DNA from: Psammoneis japonica
Lineage: Eukaryota
Length of the DNA: 64,000 nucleotides
Assembly (NCBI GenBank): GCA_008632985.1
Contig: QPGO01000120.1
Span: 1-64,000, forward strand
Direction of reading: 5' to 3'
Position numbers and translations under genes: made by a program. Positions 22,191 through 60,434 of this stretch are shown here, piece by piece. Positions within the stretch are counted from its first letter, which is position 1, and each line of letters opens with the position of its first letter. The notes beneath the pieces are model-generated. The model had not been told where the DNA came from. It worked only from the letters and a program-made list of their open reading frames with translations, and did not search any database.

Positions 22191-22191
22191 G

Positions 22192-26270: not shown

Positions 26271-26278
26271 TGGTTCAA

Positions 26279-27714: not shown

Positions 27715-28109
27715 GACGCGTTCCAGCCCTAGGTGGGAGCTCGTAGTACTGACGTGTGACACAAATAATTTTTATCATCCGTGGTATGTTTTGCACGTAC
27801 ATTTCTACGTGTGATATTTAAAAAAATTGTCCAGACTCGCTGTTTTGCGAAGCCCCAGACGTTTTATATAACAAATTTATAGAAACAATAATGCGCCAGT
27901 TACATTCTTCAATGTCTGAAGAATGTAACTGGCTAAGTAAAAAATGATGTACTTCAATCATGTGCGAGTTTGTGCGTTCGCAAAATTGCCTCATTTTCTG
28001 TTGGCGATCATTGACATTTCAATTACCGTATAATTTTACTCCGGAGCTCGCACGTAGAAGTCTACGGGCCCAATGTCACACGGATTCCCACCTACGTCTG
28101 GAACGCGTC
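27715..28109. mobile_element. MITE (GACGCGTTCCAG TIR family), inverted relative to 21600-21989
   Basis: TIRs GACGCGTTCCAG / CTGGAACGCGTC with CAG on both flanks. 28037-28109 is the near reverse complement of 21600-21672. Confidence 0.88.
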
Positions 28110-28183
28110 CAGCGCCGGATTTGATGGCGGCTCCCGGCTCCCTCCATTCTGTTCACTTCCTTTCACAAAGCATCACTTTAGAC

Positions 28184-29043
28184 ATGGATTTAGACCAAGC
28201 ATTGGAAACAAGCGTGTTGGATCAAAGGGGCAGCACAGAAGATGTTCGACGTGCACTTTTGCACGGCGCCGAAGCATGTTTGTGAACGGCACGGGTGATG
28301 ATGTTCCAGCCCCCATCCTTTTTTTTGTTGTTGTTCCGCGTGGCACAACCGATCGCGATGCAAAAGCTCAACTCTTGCTGGATGCCGGAGCACGTGTGAT
28401 GGATCAGCCACATGGACTGGCGCCCTTGCACGGTGCAGCGGTCAATGACAAAGCTGACCGCAATGGTTTGACGCCCTTGCACATGGCTTCAATGCATGGT
28501 CATGATGATTTGTGTTTGTTTCTGCTGCAAAATGGTGCCGATGTAGATTTGAAGTCAACCACCTTGGGTGCAACAGCTCTTCATTGTGCTTCAAGTGCCA
28601 GAAGCGAAAACGCAGCACGAGTTCTCTTGGAGGATGGAGGAGTGGGAGTCAATGAGATTGACAGAAAGGGGCTTGCGCCTTTGCATCATGCAGCAGGCAT
28701 GTCAGGTGGTGAAAGCATTGCGAGACTCCTGTTGGTTCACGGTGCTGACATGGGTGCCGCAGATGTAGATGGAGAAACACCATTGGACGATGCTTTCGAG
28801 CGTGGCCATCAAGCTGCAGTCTCGGTGTTGATGGAAGCGCGTGGGCAACAACTTTTGAAACAAGACAGCATTCATCCAGCTCTCTGGGCACATGTCTTGG
28901 CCAAAGTGGGAGGACGTGGCAGTGCAGACATGTCCAGAATGGGCGTTGTTTGCTCCTTGCTTTGCGAAAAGCCGGATCTGTCAAGCTGCAGGAACACCGG
29001 AAGAAAAAGAAAGCGACCTGATCGTTTTGCACCAGGGATGTGA
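28184..29043 (+). pseudogene. Ankyrin-repeat protein pseudogene
   Basis: GLTPLHMA, GATALHCA, GETPLD repeats; frameshift near 28275; no Tyr in 255 aa; ends in RKRKRP. Confidence 0.8.
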
Positions 29044-29518
29044 AACAAGTGCTGCAGCTTTGTTTTACAAAAACAAAAAACTTTGATTGCACACGTGACA
29101 TGTTTGCTGCGGCAGACATTCAAACCAGCTGTGCTTCTGCCATGCTGTTTGTTTTTTTGTTTGCTGCTTGCTCAATTTGCTCGACAGCATCCAACCACCA
29201 CACGCAAAACAGAGACCTCAAGGTGTGCCTGCCCTCGAAAACTTTGTGAGTTTCTTGGCTGGCACAGAAGAGGTTTCAGCATGCTGGGTTTTTCTGGTTT
29301 CTGGCAAGAAAATGACGTTGGGCCTTGTGTGGCTTCCGGTGTGATCGGCTTTGTCAGCCAATCGACAACAGTCGTTTTGCACTTTGTTCATTTTGCCAAT
29401 CCCATTGGTGTAAATGCACTCACCAGTCAAGGACGTGAGCCCTGTTTGCAGTGTGATTACACCTGGCAGCAAGTTTGTCCTCTCTTTACAGCGCATGATT
29501 TGGCAAGATTGTCGTCGC

Positions 29519-30425
29519 TCAGTCGACAATTTCGTTTGGAAAGTGTTCCGCCAACAAATGTTCATGACAGTCCGTGCTCCACACCAAGGTCAAGGCGGGT
29601 GCTGCATCCGTGTTGTCGCACTTGACAGTGCCAGTCATTGTCTTTTCATCCAGCATGCCTTGAAAAATCGAGTCACCACCATCGTGCACGATTTTGACCT
29701 GGTCGTCAACATCAATCAAAAAGGACCAAATTGGCATGGGCAGATGACGACTCTGATCGGGAAGAAGCAGCTTTGGTTCCACAACATTGCCGTCCAACTT
29801 TTCCATTTGAACAACAACCAGCAGTGGAGGACACGGTGCATCTCCATCACAGGCATCATCATCTGGGCAGCCATGCCAACGGCCTTGCATCTCGATGATT
29901 GTCTCTGGATCTCCTGTCACTGCTTTTTCCATGGCAAACTGAATCTCACGAGGAATGATCATCTTCTTGTCTGGCGGTTTGCAATGACCACAATCCAGAG
30001 AAATGCTTCTGTGCCATGTTGCTTCTACATTCAGGTCATTTTATTTCCAGCCACATCATCAAGCTTTCCAATGTGCACACCATTGATGGCATCAAAAAAG
30101 AAAGATGAATCTCGTTGGCATCTGGATCAAACCTTGTTGCCATGGCGGGGATGAATTGACTCCCTGGTCCAGACTGTGTGTGAAGACTTGTCCGAAAATG
30201 GGAGAGATGCTTGAAAAATGAGGTGCAACTCTAAAGTGAAAGTGCCTTTCCAGTGTCCCACAACAGGCTCCCATTCGTCCTCATGATCAGTGTCCTGCTG
30301 CAGGCTTCAGCCTTCTTGAAAGGAGCAGAAATCGCACAATGACTCTTTGTCAACACCACCCTGAGGATTGTTCCATGCACGATTGTGAGAGCAGCAGTGA
30401 CAACAAAGGCTCCCGCTTTCTTCAT
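29519..30425 (-). pseudogene. Mutated duplicate of the gene at 35568-36494
   Basis: Collinear homology (CDGDAPCPPLLVV.QMEKLDGNVVEPKL) with frameshifts and Y->C/H changes. Confidence 0.92.
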
Positions 30426-31799
30426 GGTGTTGGTCAGCAAAGACATTCTTCAGAACAACCAAGTGACTCCAACAAACAACAAGAGAGATGCCTCAAAAGA
30501 TCTGGTGGCTGCTTCTCTCCATGTGAATGCATTGCTGCACCGATGTGACAGTTGGGAATTCCATTGAACAGGAGAACTTGCTCAGGCAGGAATGAAAGCT
30601 GAAGGTGCATTGGTGCCTTCAGAGTGCGCGCCGTTGCATTGTGTCACAGCTGATGAAGCAAAAAGAAGTGACTGTCTCTCACAAAGCCAACCACCCCTCC
30701 CACAATGCCATCCGCTCAACTCTCAAGTCCCTGGGATTGACACTGTGATGAATGAGTTGAGTCTCGAGTCAAGTCACATTCGCGGTTTGTGGTTTGTGAC
30801 ATTTTGAGTTCACTTTGCCTTCAATCTTTGGTCATCAACACACAAAAGGAAGGGGCCAGCACATGCCATTGCGCAGAGTGCCCCAGCTGCTGCTGCTGCC
30901 ACAAGAAATGGCATTCCCATGGCAAGAAAACAGCTTGCATGCTCAACAATTTCGGCACTGCCCTTGACCTTCCCTGTCAATGTCTGACTGCTGCAGTGCC
31001 AGTTGTCATTGCCCTGGGAATCAATGGAGCCCTCCCATGAATCAAGACCAGCACACTGTCTGGCACTGAAGAAATGTTGCAAGAGATGCTGCTGGCATCA
31101 CTTCTGGCTCCAAAAGGATCTCTCTATGCCAGAAGTCTCTCCAGCTGCTGCAAGCCACACCAGCTCCAAACTTGATGCATGCACAGTTGGGAGCCATCTG
31201 CTTCTGCACCAACTGCACTGCTGTGGCACCTGCTTCTGTCTCTGGCCACTCTTCATCAAGCTGCTGCAATGTCAAAAGCACAGCCCTTTCACCCCATCCC
31301 TGAGAAAGCAAGAGCAGCTGCACACAAGAGAGCTGCAAACCAATCATCATCTGGGACTTGGGAGCAAGTGTTCCAATCTCACATTGTGCTGCCAACTTTG
31401 TTGGACCCCTTGAGAAGCTGGCTGCAATGCCAAAGCTCCAACAAATCACCAAGGGGCAGGAGCCCCTCAGCAACAATGTCAGTGCCTTCACTTCAGCCAA
31501 TTGTTGCACCCACCTTCAAGCAATCTTCAATCAAAAGAAGTGTCAAAATTTGCCAGTGGTGCAGGTGCTCACCACCATCATTGCAGAATGTGCCACATGC
31601 ATGGTCATGTCCATTTCATGCACAATGATGTTGCATGTGCTGCAATTCATTGACCAGATCTTGCCAACACTGTGCTCTGGTCTTTTGCTGTCATCATTCT
31701 GTTGCCTTGCCCAATGCAGTGCCCGACCCCTCCTCCATTGGATTCAGCTCCCAGGATGTCTTCAAAAAGACTCATTGGCTGCATTTTTGATTCAAGGAT

Positions 31800-34200
31800 T
31801 GTCATGTTTGGGGGTGTCCAATTCATGTGCTTGAAAAGAAAATTGCTGTTAGAAAGAAATTGCCAAGGTGGCAATCCCACAGCACCAGCCAACACCACAT
31901 CGTGTGTGTGGGATGGGTTTCAGCACTGAGCGTGCATCCTTGGTCCCACCAGTGCTCAGCCTTGACTCAAGCATGATCGCCCCACAATTTGATGTTGTTT
32001 TTGACAACTGGTTTGCTGCTGTTGGATTAAATCAAGATAATTTGCCAGCCATTGACACCCCAGAATGGTGGTCTCTCTTTGGAGACAGTGTGAGCCAATG
32101 CACTGTGGATGAGGAAGATCAACTGGAAGGCAGCATTGAAGCACATGATGAATGTCATCATTGTCTGTGTGAAGTCCAAGCTGCCACCAAGTCATGACTG
32201 CCCCCAGCTCTGCCAAACATGACTCCTCCAGCTGTCCAAGCCCCACCCTCTGTTCCTGTGGCTCCCTCAAGTGCTCCAGCAGCATCAATGGTGGTGCCTC
32301 CCACTCAGAACAACCCACTGGCGCCACCATCCCAGACTTGCCTCAGAGGGAGAGGGCCCAACCGTTGCCACCTGGTGTTGATGCCAGTCCTCAATGAGAG
32401 CCCCATTCATCCCAAAATTTATCTCCCAGAGACTCAGTCAAGTGAGGGAGCCTCTCTCACACTCCAACAGAGGGAGCAAACTCCTCCTGCTGCCTTCAGA
32501 CATTCTGCTCATGATCAAGTCCCTCCAAAGCATCACATGCACAATGGCACCCATGGACATGACCACTTGGCTCATTTTTCTGACCTTCTTTGTGTGCGCA
32601 CATTCAATCATGGCTGTCCCATCACCACAACTGCTTCTTTGGTGTGCAAGGCTGAGGACCTGAGACACCCTGTCCTGGGATGAGGCTATGCACAGCCCGG
32701 AATGCAAAAAATTGTTGCACTTGGCAGAAGAAGAAATTGTTGCCCTTGTCCAGCAAGGTGCTTGGACCAAAGTTCCGCTGTCTGAAGCCAAGACCAGGAT
32801 GCTCCCTGGCACCTGGGTGTTCCATCACAAGTGCTCCTCTCCATCTGGCAAGATCAAAAAATGCAAGGCTTGCTGCCACAATGGCAGGGATTTGCAAGAT
32901 GGCATTTTTGACACCTGTGCTCCTGTTGTGACTTGGAGTGTGGCTTGATTGTTCCTTGCATTCAGTGTCATCATGGGTTGGATCGACATGTTGGCAGATT
33001 TTCAGCCTGCATTTGTGCAACAAGCTGTGCTCACAAAGCAAGAGAGCCAGTCTGGATTCATTTGCCTCAAGGATGCAGGTCTTCTCTTGGCCCCAGGATT
33101 TGTCTGAAGCTCAACAAGAGTCCAAGTGGACTCTCTTCTGCCCCAAAGTTGTGGCACAAGCACTGCACTTGAGCTCTTTTGGATCTGAGATTCATCCAGA
33201 GCAAGTTTGATCCCCGTCTCCTGCTCCATCACAACTGCATGGTCTGTCTCTGTGTTGATGATTGTGGGGGGTCAGTGCAGCACATGGCTGTGAGTCTGCC
33301 ATTGACCAGGTTGTCAAAGGACTCAGCAAGAAGGCTTTGAATTGACTGAGGAAGGCAGCTTCGCTGAGTTCCGGGGTGTCAAGTTTGAGAAGTTGGATGA
33401 TGTCACTGTCAAACTGCAGCAGCATCGGTCAATTAAACAGATTCTTGATGCCACTGCCACTGGTGCACAAGAGATTGCAAGCCCAATGTTTTGTGGTGAC
33501 CCCAGCTCTTGGCAGTGATCCTGATGATGAGTCCATGGAGATGAGGCTTGGAGCTGTCCCTCCACCATTGGCATGCTTCTGTGTCTGTCCACCAATGCTT
33601 GCCCTGACATTGCTTTGGCTGTCAGCCAAGTTGTGCAGCTCAGTTGGCTCAGCTTCCAAGCAGCCTCATGCTGCTGCTGTCAAGACCCTGATCCATTGCG
33701 TCAAAAAGACTTGTGCCAACAGGATGTTCTTGTCTCCAAAGGGCACTCTGGACCTTGACTTGTGGGTGAGCACCAATTTTGCTGGTCTCTTCCATCAAGA
33801 GCTGGACTCCAATCTGAGCTCAGTTTGATCTCACACATGCCACCTTGTCGCCCTCAACAGAGGTGCCTTTTGGTCTGGAAGTCACAGCTCCAGATGGCTT
33901 TGTCCTGCTCCACCATTGAAGGCAAGTGTCAAGCTGCTTCCTGTGCCCTCAGAACCCTCTTGCTCTTGAAGAGGACATTGCAGCAGATTGCATTGACACT
34001 TGATGCTTGTTGCGACCTCACGACATGTTGATCTGTGCATTGCGAGCATTTGAGGATGACAACCCCGGTGCCTTTTTCCCTGCCAAGTGTTTCCTCATCA
34101 AGCGGCATTGGTTTTGGCCCCATGGTCATGAGTTTGATGTCATCAAGGTTGAGTCAGCAGATCAACTCATGGATTTTCTCTCCAAGCCTTTGACAAGAGA
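31800..34200 (+). mobile_element. Heavily degenerate Ty1/copia remnant (end of IN, RT, RNase H)
   Basis: Relic motifs LPGTWVF, GKIKKCKA, LNKSPSGLSSAPKLW, CVDD (33251), CPDIALAVSQ, WKSQLQ, DQLMDFLSKPL; many stops. Confidence 0.8.
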
Positions 34201-34962
34201 GCTCTCTTTCTTCTTGCCAACAGGAAAATGCTCAGGGTTGGTGAGCTGTCAGGCTCAGCATTTGTTTGTTTCTCAGCACATGTTGTGGCTCAGTCAAGAT
34301 GCAGGAGCTTTGCTCTGATCTTGTGCCAATTGTGTGAGCATCAGCTTGTCTCTGAGAATTTTGAACTTTGATGACCAAATCTGTGAAAGAGAAGAAGAGC
34401 AACGGATCATCTGTCCAGTGACCCATGTTGGATCACATTGCCAGAGCCCATGGCTCAGCAACAGTTGTGCCACAAATGTTGCAAGGCCCAACTTGGTTCT
34501 TGTTTGGCACAGGATTGATTGTCGAGAACTTGGCAACTCCCGTGGTGCAACAGGCAGCGTGGATTCTAACACTGTGACTTGTCCAATCACACTCACCAGA
34601 TTTTGGCCCAGACAGCTCATGGTTTATTTAGTCAGTTGTGTTTCTGTAAAAGAGTTTTGACTAAATGCCGCATTGCTGCTCGACAGTGCAGAGTCTCTGC
34701 TCACCCTCCTGTCTGAGGTGTCATCTTGGAGTGGACCTCCAAGTGGAGAGTTGGAAGACAAACGAAGCTGCCGGTACACGCACTCGCGAGCTTCGACTAT
34801 CGTAGCCGTTCCGTCCCTGTGCGTGGTCATTTGCGCTGCACAGCTGCACAGCGTCGATTTTTCGAGCTTTGAGCCGAGTGGAGTTGACGACGAGGGCGGC
34901 ACAGTTATTCTTTTCTACTTCTTCACCCCACGGAGAATCACTTCTCATTATTAAAGAGAGCC

Positions 34963-35175
34963 ATGGATTTCGATTTTCTGTTGCGACACAGCGTGTTGTT
35001 TGAAAGGGACACGGAACACGTTCGACATGCTCTGCAACACGGTGCCGATCCGAATGTGACTGTGACGACTGATGGTGCTCCGTCCCCCATCCTTTTTATT
35101 GCTCTTTGTACTGAGGGGATAGGGATTCGTTGTCATGCATCCACATCATCAGTACGCACAAAATTTTTGTTTTGA
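34963..35175 (+). pseudogene. Truncated ankyrin-protein fragment, paralog of the 5' end of 28184
   Basis: VRHALQHGADPN motif; nucleotide similarity to 28184-28330. Confidence 0.5.
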
Positions 35176-35567
35176 ATCGTCTTTTCGTCAATTGCTACTC
35201 TATTTGCTCGACACATCCGTCCACCACATGCAGATCCTTTTGTCTCCATTCCTGGGAGACCTCGAGTTGTGCCTGGCCACGAGGGCTTCGTGTATTCTTT
35301 GCTGGCACAAAAGAGGTTTTAGCAGGCGGGTTTTCTGGTGAGAAAATGAAGTTGGGCCTTGTGTGGCCTCCCGTAGCATGGTCGGGTTCGCCAACCAATC
35401 AACAATAGTTCTTCGAGTCGTTGTGTACATTATTAATGTCGTCAATCCTGTTGGCGAAAATGCATTTGCCAGTCAAGGAAGTGAGCTGTACCATTTACAA
35501 CATGGTTGCACGTAGTAAGTTTGACCTCTATTATTTACAGTGTATGATGCGGCTAGATTGTCGTTGC

Positions 35568-36494
35568 TCAGTTGACAGTTTCCTTTGTAGACTGTTCCGC
35601 CAACACATGCTTAGGATAATCCTTACTCCACACCAAGGTCAAGGCCGATGCAGCATCCGTATTGTCGTACTTGACAGTGCCAGTCATTGTCTTTTCATCC
35701 AGCGTGCCTTGAAAAATCGAGTCACTACCATCGTGCACGATTTTGACATTTCCTTCAACGTCAATCAAAAAGGACCGAATTGGCACGGGCAGACGACTCT
35801 GATCGGGAAGAAACAGCTTTGGTTCCACAACATTGCCATCTAGCTTTTCCATTTGAATCACAACCAACAGTGGAGGACACGGTGCATCTCCGTCGCAGTC
35901 GTCATCATCTAGGTAGCCGTGCCAATAGCCTTCCATCCCAACAATCGTCTCTGGATCTCCTGTCAAAACTTTTTCCGCGGCAAACTGAATCTCACGAGGA
36001 ACGCTCATCTCCTTGTTTGGCGGATCGTAACGATCGTAATCTAGAGACATGCTTCTGCCGTGTTGCTTCCACGTTCCGGTCATTTTATTTCTAGTAGCAT
36101 CATCAAGCTTTCCAATGTACACACCATCGATGGTATCAAAAAAGAAATGAATCTCGTTGGTGTCTGGATTGAACCTTGTCGCCGTGGCGGGGATGAATTG
36201 ACCTCCCTGGTCGAGACTGTACGTAAAGACTTGTCCAAAAACAGGCGAGACACGAAAAATGAGGCGCAACTCCAAACTGGGTGGCACACCCAGAGTGCCT
36301 TTCCAGTATCCAACAAGAGGTTCCCAGTCGTCCTCATGATCAGTGTCCTGCTCTAGGTTTTGCCCTTGTTGATTGGAGTAGAAATCGAAAAAGGACTCTT
36401 TATCAACGCCACCCTGAGGATTCTTCCACACGGTAGCGGCAGCGTAAAAGACTGCTAGAGCAGCAGCAATAACAAAGGCTCCCACTTTCTTCAT
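35568..36494 (-). CDS. Uncharacterised signal-anchored/secreted protein
   Basis: Intact ORF from MKKVGAFVIAAALAV with normal Tyr content; two W.G.L beta-rich modules; conserved against its decayed duplicate. Confidence 0.75.
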   Translation of the reverse strand: MKKVGAFVIAAALAVFYAAATVWKNPQGGVDKESFFDFYSNQQGQNLEQDTDHEDDWEPLVGYWKGTLGVPPSLELRLIFRVSPVFGQVFTYSLDQGGQFIPATATRFNPDTNEIHFFFDTIDGVYIGKLDDATRNKMTGTWKQHGRSMSLDYDRYDPPNKEMSVPREIQFAAEKVLTGDPETIVGMEGYWHGYLDDDDCDGDAPCPPLLVVIQMEKLDGNVVEPKLFLPDQSRLPVPIRSFLIDVEGNVKIVHDGSDSIFQGTLDEKTMTGTVKYDNTDAASALTLVWSKDYPKHVLAEQSTKETVN

Positions 36495-37153
36495 GGTGTA
36501 TTCTTCAGAATAACTCCAACAGAACAAGAAGTGAGACGCCCAGAAAAGATCTGGCGGCTGTTTCTGTCCAAGTGAAAGCGTCGACGGTTGGGAATTCCAT
36601 TGAACAGTAGAACCCTGCTCAGGCAGGAATGAAAGGTGAAGGTGTATTCGGTATTGCGGCTATTATAAGGGCCCTCTATCGTGTATCGTGTTGCGTTGTG
36701 TCTGGCTGTGACAATGAAGCGAAAAGAAGTGGCGGGACTCAAGGCATGACTCGATTCCCCCGACTGTCTCTGAAACCGTAACAATCTTTCAAAAAGATAC
36801 CAAAAATTTTCGAAATTCATCAAAAATCCTATTTTGAACAGAAAATTCAAAATTCATAGTCATTGACACCCACGACTGAAGGAGACGCGGCAACAACAAT
36901 CACAACAATCACAAGGGATCAGCTCAGCTAAACTATTGCATCAAAACATACGATCTCTTTACCAGCTTCAGCACCCTTGAATGAGGAGGAGATGAAGGTG
37001 CAATTCTTGTTTGTTTCAAGTTGTTTGCTAGTGTGGGCGAGCGCAGCAACAGAAGACACCGCTCACACAAATCATCAATAGGGAGCATCCGCCGAAGAAG
37101 AAGAAGAAGAAGAAGAAGAAAAGGCTCATATTAGCTTCATACCGGCTCCTGGA

Positions 37154-37705
37154 GTGAATTACCCAATAGGAGACGAGCGCTTGGACTCCATGCCATGGGC
37201 GCCAAATCCCGAAACCGACGACATCATGCGCGAACAGCTCCTCACATTCTTTGGGTTTCAAGTGGTTCTTGCCAACGATGAGTGTAAATGTCCTGTTCAT
37301 GAAGGAAAAGAGTCGTGGTCGGAAGAAGAATTGAAGAAATCGATATTCGCAAAAATGGGTGTACGACCTTCGGTTGCCACTTTTCTCAAGCGTTTAATGG
37401 TTCAGAAGCGTCCGCCAGTGTCCAAGAAATGTTCGGACATGCTTCATGACATTCGCAAAGCCGGATATCTCTACCAAGTAAAAACAACTGGTAGTTACAA
37501 ACGGAGCGTACGAGATTGGATCCAGCTATTTCTATTACGACAGGCTCCAAAACTTGTCATACCAGGCTGGCCAGATCAGCCCATTATGACAGTTCAGGTG
37601 CAAAAGAAAGGAGTTGACAATGAATGGTTTCTTGATGTCCCATTGTACCTTGCGTTGGCGATCCCCATATACCTGTACAAACGAAGACAGCCACAACTTA
37701 CATAG
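37154..37705 (+). CDS. Hypothetical protein (probably 3' exon; true start uncertain)
   Basis: 183-aa ORF with normal composition and a C-terminal hydrophobic segment. Confidence 0.45.
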   Translation: MNYPIGDERLDSMPWAPNPETDDIMREQLLTFFGFQVVLANDECKCPVHEGKESWSEEELKKSIFAKMGVRPSVATFLKRLMVQKRPPVSKKCSDMLHDIRKAGYLYQVKTTGSYKRSVRDWIQLFLLRQAPKLVIPGWPDQPIMTVQVQKKGVDNEWFLDVPLYLALAIPIYLYKRRQPQLT

Positions 37706-38347
37706 CTACATGAGTAGATTAGAAACTGATCTTTTAAAAATGCTGACAAACAATGTCTCTGACGCAGAGAGCAGAACTTAGCCTCTCCCCAAGTCTGTTT
37801 GCAAACTGCACGTGGCGTTGCGTAAGAATATTGGCCTGTCGAATACAAGAATCGACGTCGCTGACATTTTAGACGTCGTTGATAAGATGCCCATAGCTAC
37901 AAGAACTAACTCTAGAGCTCTACGGTACTCTAGTAGAGTAGAAAGGGCCTAACTTTTAGCGAAACTAAACGATGCAAAATGGAACAAGGTGTGAAGCACA
38001 TGCACCTAAATCAGGCACGAAGCTTCAATCCGGCGCAGTGCTGAGTGCTGACTGCGTTGCTGTGTTGCAACTTGCAACACTCAATGAAAAAACCTAGTAT
38101 AGCATCTTGGGCACATTCATCCAAAGTTTGAGACTCTTCATTCGCTTCCAGCTTCGATTCGCTGCATTTCTTTGTCCAAAAGAGGTCAGGCAAAACCACT
38201 TCAGGAGAGCGATCCGGGGTTTTAAAATTATCATAGATTTCAGAGCGCTGCGGAAATTTCTGTGGGCGCAACGAGTACAGCAACAGTACAGCCATACTGG
38301 TAGAAAAGTTTAAAAACCCGGTAAAGAGAAGAACAAGAAGAAGAGTT

Positions 38348-39694
38348 ATGTCCCTCGTTTCATCGTCAAAAAAGATTGTCATTGTTGGCGGTGGTCCGAC
38401 GTCGCTGTTGCTAGCGCATTACTTGGTCCGCCGCCCCGGATACGAGGTGCACATTCACGAGAAGCGTCCCGATCCCCGAGAGCTCTCTCCAGAAGAGGTC
38501 CGGACATATCCCATTGCCCTGCAGCAGCGTCGAGGACTGGCTGCCATTCGACAAATCCCCGGCCTCGAGGCTGCGTTGGAAAAGCGAGGCGTTTGGGTCG
38601 CCGGCGCGGCGTTGCACGGCAAAACGAAGAAACCAATCAAAATTGCACGGCCCTTGTTTCTAAGCATTGATAGGAATGATATTCCGCTTACGTTATTGGA
38701 GGAGCTTTCTCAGGTCGAACATGCTCCAAAGAGTTCTGTGCAATCGCACTTTGATAGCGCTGTAGAGCAAGTGGATCTAGACCAAAAGGTAGTAACGGTG
38801 CGAACGGTGAAGGACGGTACCAACAAAGAGGTCACACGACAAGAATCGTTTGATCATCTTGTGGCCGCCGATGGCGCCCGCTCCGTCGTGCGTGAACTGC
38901 TGTTGGAACAAGAGGAATTGGAATGGTGTAAAACTGAGGAAATTACGGACAATTACAAGTCTTTGTATTGTGCGAGAACAAGTCGCAACGAAGGTGTCGA
39001 TCCACTCTTGTCGGACCATCTCAACAGTTGGATGCTACCCGGCAAAAAGACTGTGATAATGGCCCCCAGTGGACGCAACAAGGAGCATCTCAACGGCGTT
39101 ATTGTGTTTCCCGAAGAGGACGATCCTTTTGCTACGCTGGACGACGCCTCTGCCGTTAGGAAATATCTAAACGATCTGTCGCCGCACTTGGCAGGATTCA
39201 TGTCGGACGAAGAAGCGGAGAGTCTCCGGACGCGTCCCGTTTCCACGTTACAAACAGTCAAGTGCAGCTCCTTGCAGGTGCGAGATGGAACCGTCGTGTT
39301 GCTTGGTGATGCCGCTCACGCCGTGTCGGCCAGTCTGGGACAAGGATGCAATTCGGCATTGCAGGATGTCCAGATATTGGCTGGATATCTTGATCAGTTT
39401 GATGATGATTGGAGTCGAGCAGTGCCCGCCTTTGCAACTGAACGATTGCCTTGCGCTCATGCAATCAAGGAACTGTCTGACTGCAGCATGCCCCGGACCA
39501 AGTGGCTGCGACTGGAATTTGTGGTGAGACAAATCATGTGGAAGCTTTTGCCGTCTTGGCTGGGTCGTCGTTGTTTGCGGCCACTTCCAATGCAGCTTCT
39601 GACAGAAACCGACTTGAGCTATTCTGAAATATTGGAAAAGACCCAATGGTGGGTCGATCGTGTGAAGCGGTCTGTAGGGAAGAATGAAGAATAA
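38348..39694 (+). CDS. FAD-dependent monooxygenase, kynurenine 3-monooxygenase-like
   Basis: IVIVGGGP, EKRPDPR, AADGARS and LLGDAAH...GQGCNSALQD fingerprints. Confidence 0.88.
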   Translation: MSLVSSSKKIVIVGGGPTSLLLAHYLVRRPGYEVHIHEKRPDPRELSPEEVRTYPIALQQRRGLAAIRQIPGLEAALEKRGVWVAGAALHGKTKKPIKIARPLFLSIDRNDIPLTLLEELSQVEHAPKSSVQSHFDSAVEQVDLDQKVVTVRTVKDGTNKEVTRQESFDHLVAADGARSVVRELLLEQEELEWCKTEEITDNYKSLYCARTSRNEGVDPLLSDHLNSWMLPGKKTVIMAPSGRNKEHLNGVIVFPEEDDPFATLDDASAVRKYLNDLSPHLAGFMSDEEAESLRTRPVSTLQTVKCSSLQVRDGTVVLLGDAAHAVSASLGQGCNSALQDVQILAGYLDQFDDDWSRAVPAFATERLPCAHAIKELSDCSMPRTKWLRLEFVVRQIMWKLLPSWLGRRCLRPLPMQLLTETDLSYSEILEKTQWWVDRVKRSVGKNEE

Positions 39695-39947
39695 TGACAA
39701 TCTTTACGAGATCGCAATAGAAGAATGCTTGATGGTCTCACACTAGACCGCGCATTGTGACTAGGACGACTTTGCACCAGGTAGACGAAGATCCTTCGTA
39801 ATCGGGTAACTGTAAGCGAAGCAACTGCGTTACAGGTCGTTCGTCTAGCGGCAGAAACTCGTCGTTCGGAATTATTCTTGTAATAGCCCATGGGGACTAT
39901 CTGGAAACAAAAAAAAAACAAAAGAAGCAATTTGTAAACCACTAAAA

Positions 39948-41097: not shown

Positions 41098-41689
41098 TGT
41101 CACGTCGTGCTCATGACCCGACACTTCGAGACGTCATAAAGAACAATAGAGAACTACGGACAGAACCTATATACATCTACGTGAACATACATCAAGAGAC
41201 ACATGCATGCTACATCATGAACAATTATCCAACATCTTCCTCCTAAGTAAACAACCGGACACATGCGGAAAGCGATAGTAAACAACTGGACACGTGTATC
41301 ACTTCCTAAGTAAATCGAGAAGACATTATTTCTTAGCCGAACTTCAAGTTCCTTTTCAGCCAATCCGATTCTCACAAGAAAACGGTCGAAACGATGAAGA
41401 GCGAATCGGATCTCTCGATTTTTCCCGTGATACCTTCGGACACCATACGTGACCTCCTCAGAAGTCCCAAGACGTTCCCTTAGACGATATACACTTAAAG
41501 AAGAACCCAGGAACGTTCCTACATAACGAGAACAGAATTTCTCTGGAAAAGAAAGAATCGAAAGAACATTCCGCGAGATCACCGCTCCAGAAATTCACTT
41601 CATAATTTTACACTTTTATAGTCTCACTTTTCATGAACGACTCTTAAAATCACCACAATCACCCACAATAGGCCTTGTGCCACATGACA
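41098..41689 (+). repeat. 5' LTR of gypsy (TpA-intact)
   Basis: Direct repeat of 47122-47707. Confidence 0.96.
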
Positions 41690-41719
41690 TTTTGATCAAA
41701 CAGTGGCGTGTCATTATAA

Positions 41720-44700
41720 TGATGCCGCCTCTCAGCATGGTACTGAGCATTCTACTCAAGGCGAAGAAAGCCTGCGTACGCAGCCCCCAGTTCGACGGAA
41801 CTGAAGAATGGCACTTTAGAGCGTTACCTCAAGATAATACTTATACAGCACAGGAGGACATGACTAGTCAAGCGATTGTGAAGTTACACAAGTCGCACCC
41901 CCAAGTAGCGGACGACGTTGCGAGCCTAATCAAGTACAAGGTTGCGCCAGACCCGGGAGAACCGGAAGACACGGTGGCATTCTATATCCATCAGTGTGAT
42001 ACCTCCATCAAGGAGAAGTACCTAGTCTTTTTAAAAGACTTTAATGAGCTAAGAACGGTCAAGCACTGGACAACAGGACCAGCACTTCATTGCCAGATGT
42101 CACGCCTAACCAGAGGCTCCATCAAGGACCGATGTCAGAGAGCGGTAAGAGCTCTAGTTGAAAATCCAGAAGAACTTACCCCTGAACAGTTTGATGCAGC
42201 AGTGGAGACAGTCACTGCTGGACTGCTTCCTCGAGACTCAGCGGCAGTGCAGAAGCAGTACTTGCGCTCCATACGCAAGCCAAGAGAAACTACCTTCATT
42301 GAATTCACCTCCAGAATTTCGGAAATCAATGAGCTAGCACCCTACATGAGAGGCTCTGCAGAAGAGAGAGCCCCTCTCACGGACCAAGAGTTAACTTATG
42401 CAGCAGAGCATGCTGTGCCGGATGATTGGCGAGAGAGATTCCAACTGTCCGTCGGACACAGAGGTGAGTGTGGCATGGCAGACTTGGAGACATGCTATTC
42501 CACCATTGAATCCTTCCTACAGAAGAAGAAGGCCCAACAAGAGAGAAGGTTGTCAAACAACCAACGGCGATTCCAGAGACGTATCCCCACTCACGGCTAC
42601 CGAACCGCATACGGACATGGAGGCGACCGAGCGACACGACCGAGCAACAATAACAACAACAACGCCGGAGCTCCTCCCAACCAACCACATAGACATCCTA
42701 CTCGACACCAAGCCAACTTACAGCGTGGTGGGAACCGTCCTCAAGGCTATGGTCAACAGAGAGGACGTACCCGAACGAACCGGCAAGAAATGCGTGCCGC
42801 ACACGAGCCAGAAGAAGCTCCACCAGTCCAGAACCCGGACAACAGTATAGACTCAGCCCCAGCTGAACAACTGGAACAACTTAGCATAAGAGAGGATTCT
42901 GAACCTGAATCTTATGAACAAGAAGACGGACTTGAGATACCAGAAGACGATACGAGCTACTCTTATGAAGAATCAGACGGAGAATATGATACTTACGTGG
43001 AAGAGAACTATTGCGTTCTGTTGCCAGAAGACTTTGAGCTGCAACAGAGACAGAGACCTCCCATGGACCCAGCAGAAACAACTGATGCATCCAGCATGCC
43101 GGAATTCGTGCCGCACAGCGGATCAACATCGTCAGACAGCGATGATTTGTGGAGTACCGCCAGTAGTATGTCAACAGTATCGTCGACAACCTTACGTATG
43201 TCGTCTATGGACGAGCTGTCATCTTTTGGAGAAGATGCCGATGACGAGCATGAGGCTACAGCAGACAGCGCGGATGAGTGCGCATCTCTGACATCATCAA
43301 TTTTCGAGCATGACAACAGCACGGACGCCCAGGAGTTGATAGAAGCATTATATCCAGATGGAATGGACGATTGCGACTACGTAGTGTTCCCTCATGGGGG
43401 CACACATCCTACGAGAAGGAACTTGTGTGTTCCAGGTGACCCAGACGAATTCGAAGAAGAAGAAGGACATTCGAAAACGTCCGAAGACACCGAACCCTAC
43501 ACACATGAGCAATGTCGCTCACTTTCTCATCGAGCAACTGCCTCGAAGACGAAGCGAGCTGCATCGGCAGACGAACTCATGAACAGCGAGTCCGATGAGA
43601 AAATGTCAGCGGCTCCAGAGTCCGACACCGATGAAGAGAGCATCCACACGACGAATGAACTCATGCCAGCCGCAGCGCCTGAGCCACAACCAGCAGCACG
43701 AGTGCCTGAACCAGACCCTCAGAGTGATGGTTACGAGCATTTGAGTGCATCTAGTGGTCATGATTTCTTTTGCTGTGAACCTGGCACAGTGCACCTAGAT
43801 GATGAAGAGTGTCGCACTTGGTTCCACCAAGAAGAAGAAGTCTTTGGAGATGGCATGTCTGACCATCTCAGAGAACAAGAAGAGGAGCAAAGCAGCAACA
43901 AGAAGCCGAGAAGACACGCAGCACGAAAGCCTCAAAAATGTGGGTGGAAGAACCCCGGATGCATCGTGCGACTTCAACCACTCAATCCAGTTGATGGGAC
44001 TCGAGACAAAAGCAACAATGTTCCACTCGCCTCACTCGACAGCGGTGGCAGTCGAACAACAACAAAGAGAGATGTGCTCTCAAAAGAAGCACTGGACAAG
44101 GCCACCTTAGCACCAACAAGATGGGAGACCTTGTTTGCGCAGACCCATCAGACAACTCATGTCGCGCTCACTCGTTGTCGATTCCTTGATGCATCCTTGC
44201 ACAGACAATTCGATTTGTGCTTTTACATTTCATCATTGCAAGGAATCTGTGATGCCATTGCAGGACGAGATGTTCCATTCAAGCTTGGAATGAAGCTTGA
44301 TTTCCAGGAAAAAGTCATTGCTTGGGATGACTTGTCCTTTCTGATGAGATGTCCCGAGGATTTTTGGCACCGACCGACGACGCAAGAAGAGCTCATGGCG
44401 GCTCGTAAGGCCAAAGCTGTTCGCCCAAATGACTGTGGTCCCACAGAGGACTTACAAGAGTGTGCGCCCGAGCACTTGTCGAGAGAGCAAGGTGAAGCTC
44501 TCATTGCTTTGCCAGAAGACTTCTCCAGTCTCACGCAAGGAGAGCTCGGACAACATGTCAAGCGACCACCGGTCAACATTGAGCTCAAGCCCGGCACCGA
44601 GCCCACCTCACAGCACACCCCAGATCAACTGCAACATGGCAAAAGGAGAAGTGGAGAGATCATGCCGAGTGGGAGTTCTGAGAAGGATCTCAGACTCAGC

Positions 44701-47098
44701 TTGGGGATTTCCCTCAATGTTCGTGCCGAAGAAAGGCGGTGATTGCCGATTTGTCACCGACTTTCGGCTGTTAAATCAATGCATGCAACGACGCCCATGG
44801 CCTCTGCCTTTGACACCAACCATGCTCCGAAAGCTGCACGGCTGTGCTCATGTTACAGCGATTGATTTGAACATGGGATTTTTTACGATGCGGATCAGCC
44901 AGAAGAGTCAGCAGCATCTGACTGCTGTGCTGCCGTTCGGCAAATGTGCTCACTGCAGATTGCCAATGGGACTTGCACCAGCCCCAGACACACTCCAAGA
45001 AGTCATGACTGACTTGCCAGGACACTTGGAATTCGTTCTGATTTTTATCGACGACTTGTTGATTGTTGGCAAGGGATCCTTTGATGATCACCTCGCCCAA
45101 TTGCGCGAAGCATTTGTGCTTTTGAATGATGCAGGCTTTAGAGCAAACTTGCGAAAAACTTTCTTTTGCGCTCTAGAAACGGAGCACCTGGGGTTTGTCA
45201 TTGCTGGAAACGGAATCAAACCGCAACCCAAGAAAGTCAATGCGATTGTGAATTTGGTTTCACCCAAAACAAAGAAAGAACTCAGAGGTTTTGTTGGAAT
45301 GACAAACTTCTGTCGCGAGATGTGGTGACTTCGTGCCCATCTGTTGACACCTCTTTCGAGTGTGACCTCGAAAGCGGTCAAGTTCGAGTGGAAACCCGAA
45401 CACGAGCAAGTGTTTCAAGAAATTAAGAGACGGATCTCCACCGAGACGCTTCTTGCCCACCCTGATTTCAACAAGATGTTCCACATCTACACCGATGCTT
45501 CGAAATGCCAGCTGGGAAGCGTTGTCATTCAAGACAAGCGCCCGACAGCGTTCTGCTCCCGCAAACTCTCCGACACGCAAAAAAGACATCCAGTTGTCGA
45601 ACAAGAACCACTGTCGACAGTCATGACGCTACGAGAGTGTCGTGATGTCCTGTTGGGTCATAGGATCACGATCCACACGGATCACAAGAATCTGACCTTT
45701 GCAAATTTCAAGTCAGACCGCGCACGTCGTTGGCGACTGATCGTTGAGGAATTTGGTCCCACGATTCTTTACCTGCCGGGAGGAAAAAATGTGCTCGCGG
45801 ATTTCTCATCACGTGCCGCGACCATGACTGGCGACCCAGAGATGCCAGCTGCAGATCCAATGCTGGAAGAGTGTTTCGCCTTTGAATGCGACGACAACAC
45901 TCATTGTCCCATCTCGTTTGACACGATTGTTGAAGCACAGCAAGATGATGCTACGTGCAAAAAAGCATTGCAACTCACTCGAACCGACCCGAGTCGGAAA
46001 GAATTGTCTGACTGCAGTTGCATGGTGCAGGATGGACACCTGCGCCTGGTCCTTTTTAAGGACAAGATTGTTGTCCCTACAACTTTACAAGCACCTCTGT
46101 TGAACTGGCATCATGTCAATTTACGCCATCCAGGTGTCCAACGAATGGAAAAGACCCTCAGGCAGTGCTGTTGTTGGCAAGGTTTGACCCGAGACGTCAA
46201 GACCAAGGTGGACCAATGCCAGACCTGTCTACAGTCAAAAGAGAACCGCAGAGTGTATGGAAAAACACCTCTCAAGGACATGCAAGCCCTTGAGATCGAC
46301 CCCTGGTTGCAGGTGGCAGTCGACACTGTCGGACCGATTACCTTTGCTGCTGGTGCCGGCGCCAACCGACGAAGTTTGACGTCAACCGCCCTCACGATGG
46401 TAGATCTAGCTACTCATTGTTTTGGCATGGAGCAGATCTCCACAGTCTCAGCTCTGGAAGCTGCCAGAGCATTTGACCAAGCGTGGTTGTGCAAATTTCC
46501 GCGCCCGGTCTGTTGCACACACGACAACGGTGCGGAATTTACAGGCATTGAATTTCAAGAACCACCAGTTTCTCATGGGATTGAGTCTAAACCTGCGACA
46601 GTGTGGAACCCACAGGCGAATTCACTGCTTGAATGGACCCACGATGTTTTGTGGAGCTGCACACGGGCCCAACAAGTCGATGATCCCGACGCATTTAATC
46701 AACCGAATCCGTGGAGTGCGACAATGGCCTCAGCAACTTGGGCGATAAATTCGACGGCACATGCCGTCATGCAAGCCTCTGCTGGCCAACTTGCTTTTGG
46801 AAGAGATGTGATCCTTCCCTTGCAATGCAACGTCCACTGGCCGACCATTTGTGCTCGCCGCCGACAACAAGCGCAAGCAGATGACGCGCGTGAAAACTCT
46901 CGGCGACTCGACCATGACTTCAAAGCAGGAGACCTTGTTTCTCTCCGAAACGACAACCCTCGTCGATCCAAACTCGCCTTACGCCGACTTGGCCCATGCG
47001 AGATGCATGAAGTAAAGTCCAATGGCACCGTCATCATCCAAAAAGGAAATTACCTCGAGACCGTCAACACGCGGCGTCTCGTTCCTTTCTCTCCCTGA
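41720..47098 (+). pseudogene. gypsy gag-pol, disrupted
   Basis: PR LDSGGS; RT RFVTDFRLLN, LPMGL, FIDD; RH YTDAS, TDHKNL; IN HPG...CQTC, VAVD, DNGAEF. Frameshift near 44620 and a TGA stop at 45326. Confidence 0.92.
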
Positions 47099-47121
47099 TG
47101 CGATTCATTGGAGGAGGCGCG

Positions 47122-47707
47122 TGTCACGTCGTGCTCATGACCCGACACTTCGAGACGTCATAAAGAACAACAGAGAACTACGGACAGAACCTGTGTGCAT
47201 CTACGTGAACATACATCAAGAGACACATGCATGCTGCATGAACAATTGTCCAACATCTTCCTCCTAAGTAAACAACCGGACACATGCGGAAAGCGACAGC
47301 AAACAACTGGACACGTGCATCACTTCCCAAGTAAATCGAGAAGACATTTCTTAGCCGAACTTCAAGTTCCTTTTCAGCCAATCCGATTCTCACAAGAAAA
47401 CGGTCGAAACGATGAAGAGCAAATCGGATCTCTCGATTTTTCCCGTGACACCTTCGGACACCATACGTGACCTCCTCAGAAGTCCCAAGACGTTCCCTTA
47501 GACGATGTACACTTAAAGAAGAACCCAGGAACGTTCCTACATGACGAGAACAGAATTTCTCTGGAAAAGAAAGAATCGAAAGAACATTCCGCGAGATCAC
47601 CGCTCCAGAAATTCACTTCATAATTTTACACTTTTACAGTCTCACTTTTCATGAACGACTCTTAAAATCACCACAATCACCCACAATGGGCCTTGTGCCA
47701 CATGACA
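47122..47707 (+). repeat. 3' LTR of gypsy (TpA-mutated)
   Basis: 16 substitutions and two 3-bp deletions relative to the 5' LTR. Confidence 0.96.
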
Positions 47708-49746
47708 TGTCATCTGGGTCACATCCACGAATGGCCACCTTCACCGTGACGCTCCAAATCTTCGTGCAGCTGCGCAAACTGCCCTCCCACTGGTCAGGGT
47801 TGGTGCCATTAAAAATTTCGGATACTCTAGGATGAATATCCTCATTTCCGCACTCTCTCACCAACTCTCTTCTGTTTGGTAGTATGTCAGCAAAATTCCG
47901 CATCTTTCTGTCGCGTGCCTCTCGTAAGTGCTGAAAAAACAAAGCTTGCAGGTGAGGGACAAGCTGTCCCAAAAGACCGGTGACGAACACACATGTGTTG
48001 CGCCATTTTCCATACACAGCGTGAGTTCCTCTTCCATTTGAAATCGCTTTCACTTCTCGATTTCCCTGAAGGCGATCATCACATCTGGGACAAGGACAAT
48101 AGGGCTGGCATCTGTTGAACACGGGCGGATCGCACGAAGAGCAGACGAACAAAAAGGATCCAGTTAGTCGAGTCGTGTATTCAAGTTCATCCGAGTAGCA
48201 CGATCGCCCAGATGGAAACAGTATAGTAGGTCACGCCCCGACGCGCGCGATCGGGCAATAGTAGATATATGGAAAAACACCAGTCACGACCTCGTTCATG
48301 ATTCACGCGTTCGCATACATGGACAATGACGCTCCGAAAATGCCAATAAACCGCATCACCGACCCTTGAACCAAAGTCATCAACAAGACGAATACAAGGT
48401 AGAGACAAACGTTGTTGTATGCATACAACAAAAACCAAATGAATCCATCAACAGAGTCGACAATCAATTGTCAGAATTCCGCCACGGAAACAATGGTCCA
48501 TGGCCGTGGAAATACCAAACTTGCAATCGACGGTATCAAACAACGATAATAACAACATGTCGACGAGACGTGCGTCGTCGCCTTGATATGACAATCAAAT
48601 GAATGATTCACAAGCATCGACGATTACACCCGTAGAATCAAAAGTCTACAGAACATCATGGACCCACGGTGGAATGTCGGGATTTTCGAACTTTGAAACG
48701 ACGGTATCGAAACAGTGACGATAACAATACGACGACAACACATACACAACAAGCGTCGTGATATTTGTGCAACAATCAAATGAAGAAATTGATAGCGACG
48801 ACACAAAAGAGTTCGTCAAACCGCGCGCGAAAAACCACAAAAGCTTCCACGGACGATGTACGCCGAATCAATGAATGGAGCCTCCGAAAAACGATTCGTA
48901 CTGCTAGCCCTTACCTTGACAGAGTTGGGTGTGTAGTACAATGGCGTAAGAAGAGGTGTCAATGAAGCAATGCTAACTTCCTTGCGATTCGATGGCGAAC
49001 GCGAGAAAGTGTGTGTTCGGCTTGATGTGTGTTGCGTGTTGCGTGAAGATTTTAGCGCGCACGTCTTAGCTACGTACTTTGGGCGGTCGTGCTTTTGGAG
49101 CTGGAGAACGATCTCCGTAAACCGAGACATTAGGACAAAAAAAAATGACAAGGAAAGCACGTGCGGAATCGCTACAGGAACATTGTATGAGACTGGACCC
49201 AGTCCAATCCACGACGTCGGGGCCAAAAATGAAGAACCAAATGACAAGACTAACTTTGTAGCATCTGAGCAGGAGCCAAGTGACAATGAAGCAAACGGCA
49301 GAACGAATCCGTGGCGATATGACGAAGTATAAATGACGCCCGAAGTAACATGACAGGCGCGATTTGCATTGTCTTATGCTATCGGTTGGACGAGAATATT
49401 GCATTGAAGGAAATCCCATTATTTTGATTCACCACCTCTTGAATATCAGCCACATTTGGTACATTGTAATAAGCAGTAATGTTGCCTCGTCGAGCATTGT
49501 CGGGTCGGATGCGACAAGCCATCATGCAAGCGTCTTTGGCGGCCTTCAAGTAATCGTCACGATCCGAAACAATCAAGAGTATTTCCGGTGGTCCTTTTCA
49601 GACAAGTCGTCTCGAAACTCGTCTCATTGATATGGGTGCGTGCATGGCCGAGGAATTGAACCGAAACAATCCAAAACATCCAGCATGGCACCACCTTTCA
49701 AGGGCAGGTGAACCCTGTAGCAACAGAGATTCGGATCGACGGTTCT

Positions 49747-50892: not shown

Positions 50893-51625
50893 TCTCTTGT
50901 CTTGTTCATCGAGATTGCAGTGTGCTCAATGCGTTGTTTCTGCTGGGATGTTTTCGGGTTTTAATGTGAACGATGTCTCCGCGTGATGATGATGTGTTGG
51001 TTGCACTCAACGGACGGACGTGATAGACATACCGTGCCGTCGTGGAGACGATGCTCTTCGGTTTACAATTGTGTGCCAGAGTAAAGAAAAGAGACTATGA
51101 AAAGCACTTCCCCATTCTCCATTATATCTGAGAATGGGCTCTTCTTTGGAAGCGCTCTAGGTTGATGACTGATGCGACGGTCTTTGATTCGATTTTCCCA
51201 GGGTGAAATATGTCGTCTCGAGGAAGAGCTTGCCTTGGACCCAAGCCAGGCTTCAACCGTCTCTCAGCTGATTTCAGACGGCCGTCATGCTTGCTGCATT
51301 TGGTAAATCAAAGCCTCGTTGAAAAGCTACAAAATGTTCTCCTTGGCATGGAAGGGATGCATTTACGATAGAAGCACAGGGTTTCATTCAAAACTCACAT
51401 TTCAGAACAAAAAGAAAATTGCTATTGAGACATTTCTGTCTGTTTTGGCACCGGTACGATACTGTAGAAGAACGAAATGATCCGTGCTCCGAGTCGGGTC
51501 GATCTATCTAGCCGTTGTTGACCTCGAGCAAAACCAGTTGAAACTTTCACGAGCAACACCCCATGCAACATTACACAAGCTGTTGCCCCACCAGAAAGAG
51601 TCAGGATGGAGATGGCAATGTTTCA

Positions 51626-52369: not shown

Positions 52370-52579
52370 GGTGATAGGTATTCTGGAGTTCTGAGTTCAT
52401 CAATCGCCAACGAGTAGGGACGGACAGACCAGCGATGGCCAGCATCTAAGCTGCTCTACTCTACCGTAGCTACCGGCAGCTAGCTACAGCAGCTAGAGCT
52501 CTAGCTGCTGCTCTAGAGTAGCATCTATCTATCTATCTATGGCATGGACATGTTATGTCGATCAGAGCGAGTGTTAGAG

Positions 52580-54150: not shown

Positions 54151-54235
54151 TGAATTTTTGATGCCTGTAAAAACTCATCCAAGTCCACCACAATCGTTCT
54201 ACCTCTTTGTTGATGCAGTAACAGGCCTCTACTCC

Positions 54236-60430: not shown

Positions 60431-60434
60431 CAGC

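What the first reader, a model, noticed from the sequence alone, without database searches (positions are those of the whole stretch)
28150..36740. Host-gene duplication in which only one copy is hypermutated
About 29170-30690 duplicates about 35200-36740. The intact copy reads catcatctaggtagccgtgccaatagcc and the other catcatctgggcagccatgccaacggcc; the protein changes from GYWHGYL to GRWHGCP, KYDN to KCDN and DYPKH to DCHEH. A few AA->AG changes also occur, compatible with a WA preference. Fungal RIP mutates both partners, whereas here only the copy among TEs is hit. This argues for chromatin-context targeting rather than homology pairing, although selection could also preserve one copy.
Basis: partly seen in the sequence, partly recalled or inferred. 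Interest (0 to 1): 0.75.

Follow-up and report, generated by a model that had tools for sequence, protein, structure and literature searches.

The report
Position decides which duplicate is mutated
In this alga-like genome, of eight near-full-length copies of one small gene only the copy lying among working genes has kept its T-A steps, while the copies in transposon-rich DNA have had nearly all of them rewritten to T-G or C-A, which points to a mutation process guided by location rather than by copy-matching, similar to one recently reported in an unrelated alga.

Summary
The duplication and the asymmetry are real. Copy A (29151-30670) keeps 2 of copy B's 47 TpA; 34 read TG/CA. B (ORF 35568-36494) is spared at synonymous sites: 18/64 TpA, against 141/600 in other host genes and 2/58 in A. 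Three corrections. (1) There is no WA preference: AA>AG is at background. (2) CpG also decays, but later. (3) This is not a lone pair: six more near-full copies elsewhere are all erased, including both members of the same tandem pair. B's distal 3' flank looks partly hit, so the non-coding test alone is inconclusive. Independent controls favour position over pairing. In five young gypsy insertions the 3' LTR lost 58 TpA against 0 in the 5' LTR. A 2.7-kb paralogue pair at 90% identity shows no directional loss in either copy. A third paralogue shows loss fading away from an erased block. Best reading: a strictly TpA-specific DNA A>G process in silent domains, like that of Bigelowiella natans (bioRxiv 2026); enzyme and chromatin mark are inferred. 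A homology-seeded heterochromatin route is not excluded. The scan has noted this process, one-copy-spared duplicates and LTR asymmetry before in this genome.

The parts
27715..28110 (.). About 400-bp high-copy short insertion (MITE-like), TpA-rich, sitting inside the erased domain; probably younger than the erasure (inference)
   Evidence: TpA o/e 0.84; copies at window 21587-21989 and inside the C165 copy of gene X; very high contig depth in run X1
28150..29050 (+). Decayed ankyrin-repeat gene, upstream part of duplicated unit A; TpA erased, CpG largely kept
   Evidence: Pfam Ank_2 6e-24; TpA o/e 0.07, CpG o/e 0.70; intact 303-aa paralogue on C300
29151..30670 (-). Copy A of gene X with its flanks: pseudogene, TpA erased, CpG about half lost
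   Evidence: 2 of 47 TpA and 20 of 66 CpG of B kept; stops and frameshifts
31160..34420 (+). Decayed copia LTR retrotransposon body; no 5' LTR found; TpA and CpG both erased
   Evidence: Less decayed relatives match 31163-34338 and carry gag_pre-integrase, rve and RVT_2; TpA o/e 0.03, CpG o/e 0.12 over 31531-34420
34423..34760 (+). Copia 3' LTR (approximate limits); the edge of the erased domain falls inside it
   Evidence: Matches at about 34423-34760 in many loci, purine tract before it, ends in CA; TpA at 34647 and 34662 read TG/CA in most other copies, while 34480, 34489 and 34609 are lost here
34761..35567 (.). 3' flank of gene B with an ankyrin remnant (34959-35106); mostly spared, distal part apparently partly hit
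   Evidence: TpA o/e 0.56; of supported ancestral TpA, 1 kept and 4 lost in 35130-35350, 6 kept and 2 lost (poorly aligned) in 35351-35567
35568..36494 (-). Gene X copy B, intact, 308 codons from ATG, N-terminal hydrophobic stretch; function unknown
   Evidence: 5 homologues, four at 37-48% identity over 78-99% of its length; Pfam only a weak DUF4923 hit, E 0.014; synonymous TpA 18/64; exact contigs in runs X2 and X3
37082..39694 (+). Intact neighbours (207-aa frame; FAD monooxygenase) that were co-duplicated to C276/C165, where they are erased too
   Evidence: FAD_binding_3 1.5e-19; their copies keep 0-3 TpA per aligned piece and lose up to 40
41098..47708 (+). Young gypsy retrotransposon used as a control: 5' LTR 41098-41690 keeps TpA, 3' LTR 47122-47707 has lost 14
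   Evidence: RVT_1, RNase H, integrase; 14 of 16 LTR mismatches are TA against TG/CA
49750..61630 (.). Second asymmetric duplicate in the window: SET-domain gene 49986-51289 against an erased inverted copy at 60550-61630
   Evidence: TpA 27 lost, 0 reverse, 1 shared; SET 1.1e-6

Best explanation
An ankyrin + gene X unit was duplicated in tandem and the cluster was copied again to another locus. Copies that came to lie in silent, transposon-rich domains were exposed to a DNA-level mutator that turns the A of TpA into G on either strand, one site at a time, fast relative to other changes, until TpA is almost gone; ordinary decay of methylated CpG follows more slowly. What is hit is set by position: kilobase patches that fade towards active genes. 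Copy B lies just outside such a domain. Selection probably acts on where the domain edge sits (one working copy must survive), not site by site. SHOWN: the spectrum, strict TpA context, both strands, patchiness, asymmetry between identical-at-birth LTRs, TpA loss before CpG loss. INFERRED: that the domains are methylated or heterochromatic, that transcription or open chromatin shields B, and that the chemistry is adenine deamination (about 0.5) by an unidentified enzyme.
For: B synonymous TpA 18/64, like 141/600 in eight other host frames (p=0.44) and unlike A 2/58 (p=0.0002). Among 83 coding TG/CA sites of B that could be scored in both pseudogene lineages, none showed a lineage with the opposite state. 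LTR pairs of five young gypsy insertions, TpA kept only in the 5' LTR against only in the 3' LTR: 14:0, 0:0, 9:0, 19:0, 16:0; in three of the four asymmetric ones the 3' flank is TpA-poor (o/e 0.12-0.24) and the 5' flank is not (0.57-0.67). Paralogous loci on C300 and C499 (2,724 bp, 90.4% identical, different flanks) show 11:10 discordant and 81 shared TpA. The C293 paralogue loses TpA in a gradient away from an erased block (6/14, 5/19, 2/13, 1/7, 0/5, 0/2 per 400 bp after a first bin of 0/2), with 6 of 101 CpG lost. Hits cluster along each of 5 of 5 gypsy copies (p<=0.007) without strand runs (182 against 177 expected, p=0.32) and with no TA>CG doubles. A keeps 5 of 63 TpA against 45 of 110 CpG among kept-or-TG/CA sites (p=2e-6). 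In B. natans the TpA-hypermutated giant-virus region is single-copy and silent (10.64898/2026.01.13.699255). Diatom TEs are CG-methylated islands with repressive histone marks (PMC9998398, passages).
Against: No methylation, histone or verified RNA data were obtained. B's non-coding flank is not clean: per-strand TA>TG against the unmutated paralogues is 8/31 for B and 22/71 for A, and the same-site test gives p=0.10. Two older gypsy relatives do not show the 5'-spared pattern (C282 5:3, C525 1:5). The window's own gypsy has TpA-normal DNA on both flanks (0.60, 0.52) yet an asymmetric LTR pair, and its target-site duplication matches at only 3 of 4 bases. Every erased stretch studied here is repeated somewhere, so a role for homology in seeding the domain is not excluded. 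The deaminase search showed only ordinary-looking housekeeping types.
Confidence: 0.72

Rival explanations
1. Homology-seeded, chromatin-executed mutation, like the DIM-2/DIM-5 route of RIP: pairing of close repeats nucleates a silent domain that mutates the linker and its surroundings, and an active gene or promoter shields one partner.
For: In Neurospora this route mutates mainly the single-copy linker between close direct repeats (10.1101/344036). Here the DNA between A and B is the most erased, and the gypsy interior is hit harder than the 5' end. At C276/C165 both tandem partners are erased with no copia between them.
Against: Erasure runs at least 3 kb upstream of A (25000-27700, o/e 0.09). 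Along the gypsy the loss is lopsided: the first 2.4 kb is mostly spared in 4 of 5 copies. The dispersed 90% pair is spared. The B. natans target is single-copy.
Confidence: 0.17
2. Both copies are mutated alike (canonical RIP-like pairing) and selection purges the changes from B.
For: B has the shortest branch among the full copies and is the only intact copy among the 16 matches. Its distal non-coding flank lost 4 of 5 supported ancestral TpA.
Against: Selection on the protein cannot keep 18 synonymous-escapable TpA, at the host-gene rate. The two LTRs of one insertion have no such selection and differ 58:0.
Confidence: 0.04
3. Same positional targeting, different chemistry: error-prone patch repair (Pol eta-like, WA motif) started at T:G mismatches from deaminated 5mC.
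For: TpA and CpG loss occupy the same domains in old DNA. WA is the A/T hotspot of somatic hypermutation and depends on mismatch repair (PMC6423074, two passages).
Against: AA>AG equals GA>GG, and TA>TC/TT is 0 of 2740. There are no same-strand runs such as long repair patches should leave. TpA loss runs far ahead of CpG loss.
Confidence: 0.1
4. RNA editing (ADAR-like) or reverse-transcription errors fixed at insertion.
For: ADAR favours a U before the edited A (as stated in 10.64898/2026.01.13.699255).
Against: Changes fall on both strands (A: 13 TG, 21 CA). They hit DNA-duplicated multi-gene clusters with their intergenic DNA and differ between the two LTRs of one insertion.
Confidence: 0.02

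Closest known systems
TpA-restricted A:T>G:C hypermutation of integrated giant-virus and virophage DNA in Bigelowiella natans (Mettrop et al., bioRxiv 10.64898/2026.01.13.699255; parts 1-3 of 5 read; term search of the whole text)
   Same: TpA>TpG/CpA on both strands, confined to regions, silent target, enzyme unknown (ADAT2-like proposed there).
   Different: There: measured in mutation-accumulation lines, two viral regions, TpA only partly depleted, no mention of CpG or diatoms in the main text. Here: inferred from copies; hits host-gene duplicates and LTR retrotransposons, goes to near-completion, is followed by CpG loss, and 52 of 128 500-bp bins of the window have TpA o/e under 0.15. Supplements of that preprint could not be seen and may bear on overlap.
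Repeat-induced point mutation of Neurospora, RID and DIM-2 routes (10.1101/344036; passages and section 9 read)
   Same: Dense dinucleotide-specific transitions on both strands that destroy repeats and duplicates; the DIM-2 route acts through heterochromatin.
   Different: RIP is C>T (creates TpA); this removes TpA. The RID route mutates the repeats themselves with modest left-right differences; here one LTR is untouched while its twin loses up to 19 of 31 TpA.
DNMT5 CG methylation of diatom transposons (PMC9998398; passages read)
   Same: TE islands in an unmethylated genome; would explain the CpG>TpG/CpA part.
   Different: Does not give A>G. Methylation was not measured here.
Pol eta A/T mutagenesis at WA in somatic hypermutation (PMC6423074; two passages read)
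   Same: A:T mutation with T before A favoured.
   Different: AA is not hit here, there are no transversions at TA and no strand runs.

Membership tests
B. natans-type TpA hypermutation | A>G/T>C restricted to TpA | tested here: met
   TA>TG 359/2740; AA>AG 9/4515; GA>GG 13/5050; TA>TC/TT 0. The apparent CA>CG excess came from 72 TG/CA switch sites; 3 remain once these are set aside.
B. natans-type TpA hypermutation | Both strands, DNA level | tested here: met
   A: 13 TG, 21 CA; every gypsy copy shows both.
B. natans-type TpA hypermutation | Confined to regions, host genes spared | tested here: met
B. natans-type TpA hypermutation | Target of viral origin | tested here: not met
   Targets here are host-gene duplicates and copia/gypsy elements; the preprint only suggests TEs as further targets.
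B. natans-type TpA hypermutation | About 1000-fold raised rate, on in some lines only; same enzyme | not testable with these tools
   Needs mutation-accumulation lines and knockouts; relative excess over AA/GA in young copies is about 50-65-fold.
RIP (RID route) | C>T at CpA, TpA gain | tested here: not met
   TpA is lost.
RIP (RID route) | Both paired repeats mutated | tested here: not met
   LTR pairs 58:0; A against B; SET pair 27:0. Both partners are hit at C276/C165, where the whole cluster is erased.
RIP (DIM-2 route) | Homology seeds heterochromatin; linker mutated most | tested here: inconclusive
   Linker DNA is heavily hit, but so is DNA outside the pair, and the profile is lopsided.
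Pol eta WA mutagenesis | AA hit as well as TA | tested here: not met
   In one polarisation of A, AA>AG was 6/143 against GA>GG 1/144; in the other 17/162 against 14/142.
5mC deamination of methylated TEs | CpG methylation in the erased domains | not testable with these tools
   Only the footprint (CpG>TG/CA) is seen.

The most novel reading that the evidence does not exclude
This lineage has a dedicated, chromatin-guided DNA adenine deaminase pathway that acts on anything entering a silent domain, host-gene duplicates included, ahead of CpG decay and possibly ahead of frameshifts. It would be a natural base-editor-like genome defence that decides the fate of gene duplicates by their address, leaving one survivor, and could be shared between stramenopiles and Rhizaria.
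Probability: 0.35. Interest if true: 0.85.

Novelty: new variant of a known kind. Interest (0 to 1): 0.62.

Why it matters
Fungal RIP is the model for mutational genome defence and depends on finding homology. An A>G process of opposite polarity that reads position would be a second design, and the targeting rule is exactly what the B. natans preprint leaves open. This locus offers natural controls (erased, spared and half-erased paralogues; twin LTRs) that make the rule testable with one methylome and one transcriptome. It also bears on how duplicates die in such genomes and on dating: LTR-divergence ages are badly inflated here, since 14 of 16 LTR differences are TpA hits. A natural DNA adenine deaminase would interest base-editing work.

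Tried and rejected
WA preference: rejected. Strand-coordinated tracts: not found, pooled p=0.32. Function of gene X: Pfam gave only DUF4923 at E 0.014, below cut-off; Atlas hits all under 0.9, leads only; no fold was run. A 5' LTR for the copia between A and B: none found. Expression: no RNA holder listed; runs X2 and X3 have no contig of A or of the copia, but uncovered parts are no evidence, and the runs were found with B's region. Enzyme: PF00383 search gave 9 matches that look like dCMP deaminase, TadA/ADAT2-like, RibD and guanine-deaminase types by my reading of the frames; other deaminase families were not searched. Literature: searches for diatom + TpA + TE + A-to-G, diatom + TpA + hypermutation + repeat, TpA + CpG depletion + A-to-G + RIP + TE and diatom + 'TpA depletion' + TE each gave 0 papers; one search gave only the B. 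natans preprint. The library lacks most subscription journals. Rows left out: of 9 stretches fetched for the gypsy family 6 were analysed; C281 (two stretches) and C342 were not. C282 and C525 were kept out of the five-copy spectrum as more distant (608-684 differences) but are reported. The fragment at window 10926 was left out of the multiple alignment. A 'shared early erasure' of A and c is only suggestive: 28/36 concordant, but unrelated pairs reach 52-69%.
Full report
1. The observation. Self-comparison and alignment show A (29151-30670) and B (35179-36731) as a direct duplication with 241 mismatches in 1,460 columns. B encodes an intact 308-codon protein of unknown function with five database relatives. 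A is broken; the quoted protein changes are as stated. Of 47 aligned TpA in B, A keeps 2, and 34 read CA (21) or TG (13). Of 66 CpG, A keeps 20 and 39 read TG/CA. AA>AG is balanced by AG>AA (6 and 6), so the WA remark has no support in the pair.

2. Surroundings. A lies in a TpA-poor block from about 25000 to 34560 that holds a decayed ankyrin gene, A, and a decayed copia. A 400-bp TpA-rich high-copy insertion interrupts it (27715-28110). The block ends inside the copia 3' LTR (about 34423-34760): outer TpA at 34647 and 34662 survive here but read TG/CA in most other copies (few sites). B's stop codon is about 800 bp further on, so B is beside a TE too. That the organism is a diatom comes from earlier notes of the scan and was not tested here.

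3. The family. B's coding DNA has 16 matches in the genome. Six near-full copies lie on C276 and C165, three each, with copies of B's neighbours. The two contigs differ by 3.6-6.4% and may be haplotypes: a contig carrying the C165-specific 54-bp deletion has about 60% of the local depth in run X1. Each of the six keeps only 3-4 of 43-45 TpA and 2-7 of 63-67 CpG. One pair there repeats the A-B tandem arrangement without the copia, and both members are erased. TG/CA outcomes in A agree with the a and b copies at 61-63% (chance 51-53%), so these erasures are largely independent; A and c are sisters (93% support) and agree at 28/36. A and c share no frameshift in the coding region by my reading of the alignment, which suggests erasure began before the frame broke; this is suggestive only, since unrelated pairs reach 69%.

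4. Is B spared at neutral sites? Synonymous positions: yes. TpA is used at 18/64 positions where it could be lost silently, against 141/600 in eight other host frames (p=0.44) and 2/58 in A (p=0.0002). Non-coding 3' flank: only partly. With three unmutated paralogues as reference, B has 7 kept and 6 TG/CA, A 2 and 10 (p=0.10). Supported losses in B sit mainly in the part nearest the LTR: 4 of 5 in 35130-35350, against 2 of 8 (both in a poorly aligned stretch) in 35351-35567.

5. Controls free of protein selection. The window's young gypsy (41098-47708) has LTRs that differ at 16 of 587 columns, 14 being TA in the 5' LTR against TG/CA in the 3' LTR. Four close relatives with matching 4-bp target-site duplications give 0:0, 9:0, 19:0 and 16:0, 58:0 in all. 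They were found with the intact LTR as query, which favours elements with one intact LTR but not which one. Two older relatives give 5:3 and 1:5. A SET-domain gene and its inverted copy in the window give 27:0. Conversely, two paralogous DnaJ + ankyrin loci, 2,724 bp at 90.4% identity with different flanks, show no directional loss (11:10, 81 shared); selection may help there, but the stretch includes a dead remnant of gene X. A third, broken paralogue on C293 loses TpA in a gradient over about 2 kb from an erased block while keeping 95 of 101 CpG.

6. Mechanism. In the five young copies TA>TG is 359/2740 per strand (an underestimate, since 72 further sites read only TG or CA), AA>AG 9/4515, GA>GG 13/5050, TA transversions 0. 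TAC and TAT (0.16-0.17) are preferred over TAG (0.10) and TAA (0.07). Hits cluster in each copy but show no strand runs and no TA>CG doubles. This fits single A>G lesions fixed one at a time over many divisions inside local patches, as a deaminase or another TpA-specific lesion would give, and fits patch repair by Pol eta poorly. CpG loss lags (A: 5/63 TpA kept against 45/110 CpG) and is most simply decay of methylated CpG, known for diatom TEs (PMC9998398). Run X1, which may be the source sample, differs from the window in A at 4 sites of a 650-bp contig, all in TA or CG/TG steps, two being TA>TG; four contigs over 35806-40000 show none. This hints that the process is recent or ongoing; an assembly artefact is not excluded. 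Contigs of X2 and of X3 (RNA is a guess) match B's frame exactly; expression is not shown.

7. Known systems. The signature matches that measured in B. natans, where the main target is single-copy and silent. It is not RIP by chemistry or symmetry, though the DIM-2 route shows that homology can act through chromatin on DNA other than the repeats, so a hybrid stays open. Five searches found no description in diatoms; bioRxiv supplements could not be seen. The scan has earlier notes on this process, on one-copy-spared duplicates and on LTR asymmetry in the same genome; they gave me the B. natans lead and are not used as support.

8. Verdict. Real asymmetry; position-guided targeting is the best reading (0.72); WA rejected; enzyme and chromatin state untested. 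New variant of a known kind, interest 0.62.

Noticed in passing
window 41098-47708 and relatives on C59, C13, C71, C295: The first 2.4 kb (5' LTR and gag) is mostly spared while pol and the 3' LTR are hit; LTR-based ages would be inflated many-fold.
   Followed up: yes
window 49986-51289 against 60550-61630: SET-domain gene with an inverted, erased copy: TpA 27:0, CpG 31:2.
   Followed up: partly
window 1093-1374 and 7929-8205: A 282-bp direct repeat pair, probably LTRs of a GC-rich element; TpA 6:2, CpG unchanged (20 shared).
   Followed up: partly
window 27715-28110, 21587-21989; C165:143374-143763: High-copy 400-bp insertion that keeps TpA inside erased DNA and interrupts one copy of gene X; usable as a clock for domain age.
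   Followed up: partly
window 21135-21417, 21986-22192, 54256-54570: Short dispersed repeats with one-sided TpA loss (0:10 and 8:0).
   Followed up: partly
C276 and C165 gene clusters: Probable haplotype pair; a four-gene cluster (ankyrin, X, 207-aa gene, FAD monooxygenase) copied there is erased throughout.
   Followed up: partly
window 30671-31160: Fully erased stretch with no match elsewhere in the DNA search; a candidate single-copy target, or the decayed 5' end of the copia.
   Followed up: no
host genes of the window: Ordinary genes also avoid TpA: T at third positions is rarer before A than before C or T.
   Followed up: no
L081 (C26:119851-120054) and L078 (C38:7368-7679): ADAT2-like and TadA-like deaminase frames; candidates for a knockout, nothing unusual seen.
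   Followed up: no
window 13779: A run of 85 N (assembly gap), outside the finding.
   Followed up: no
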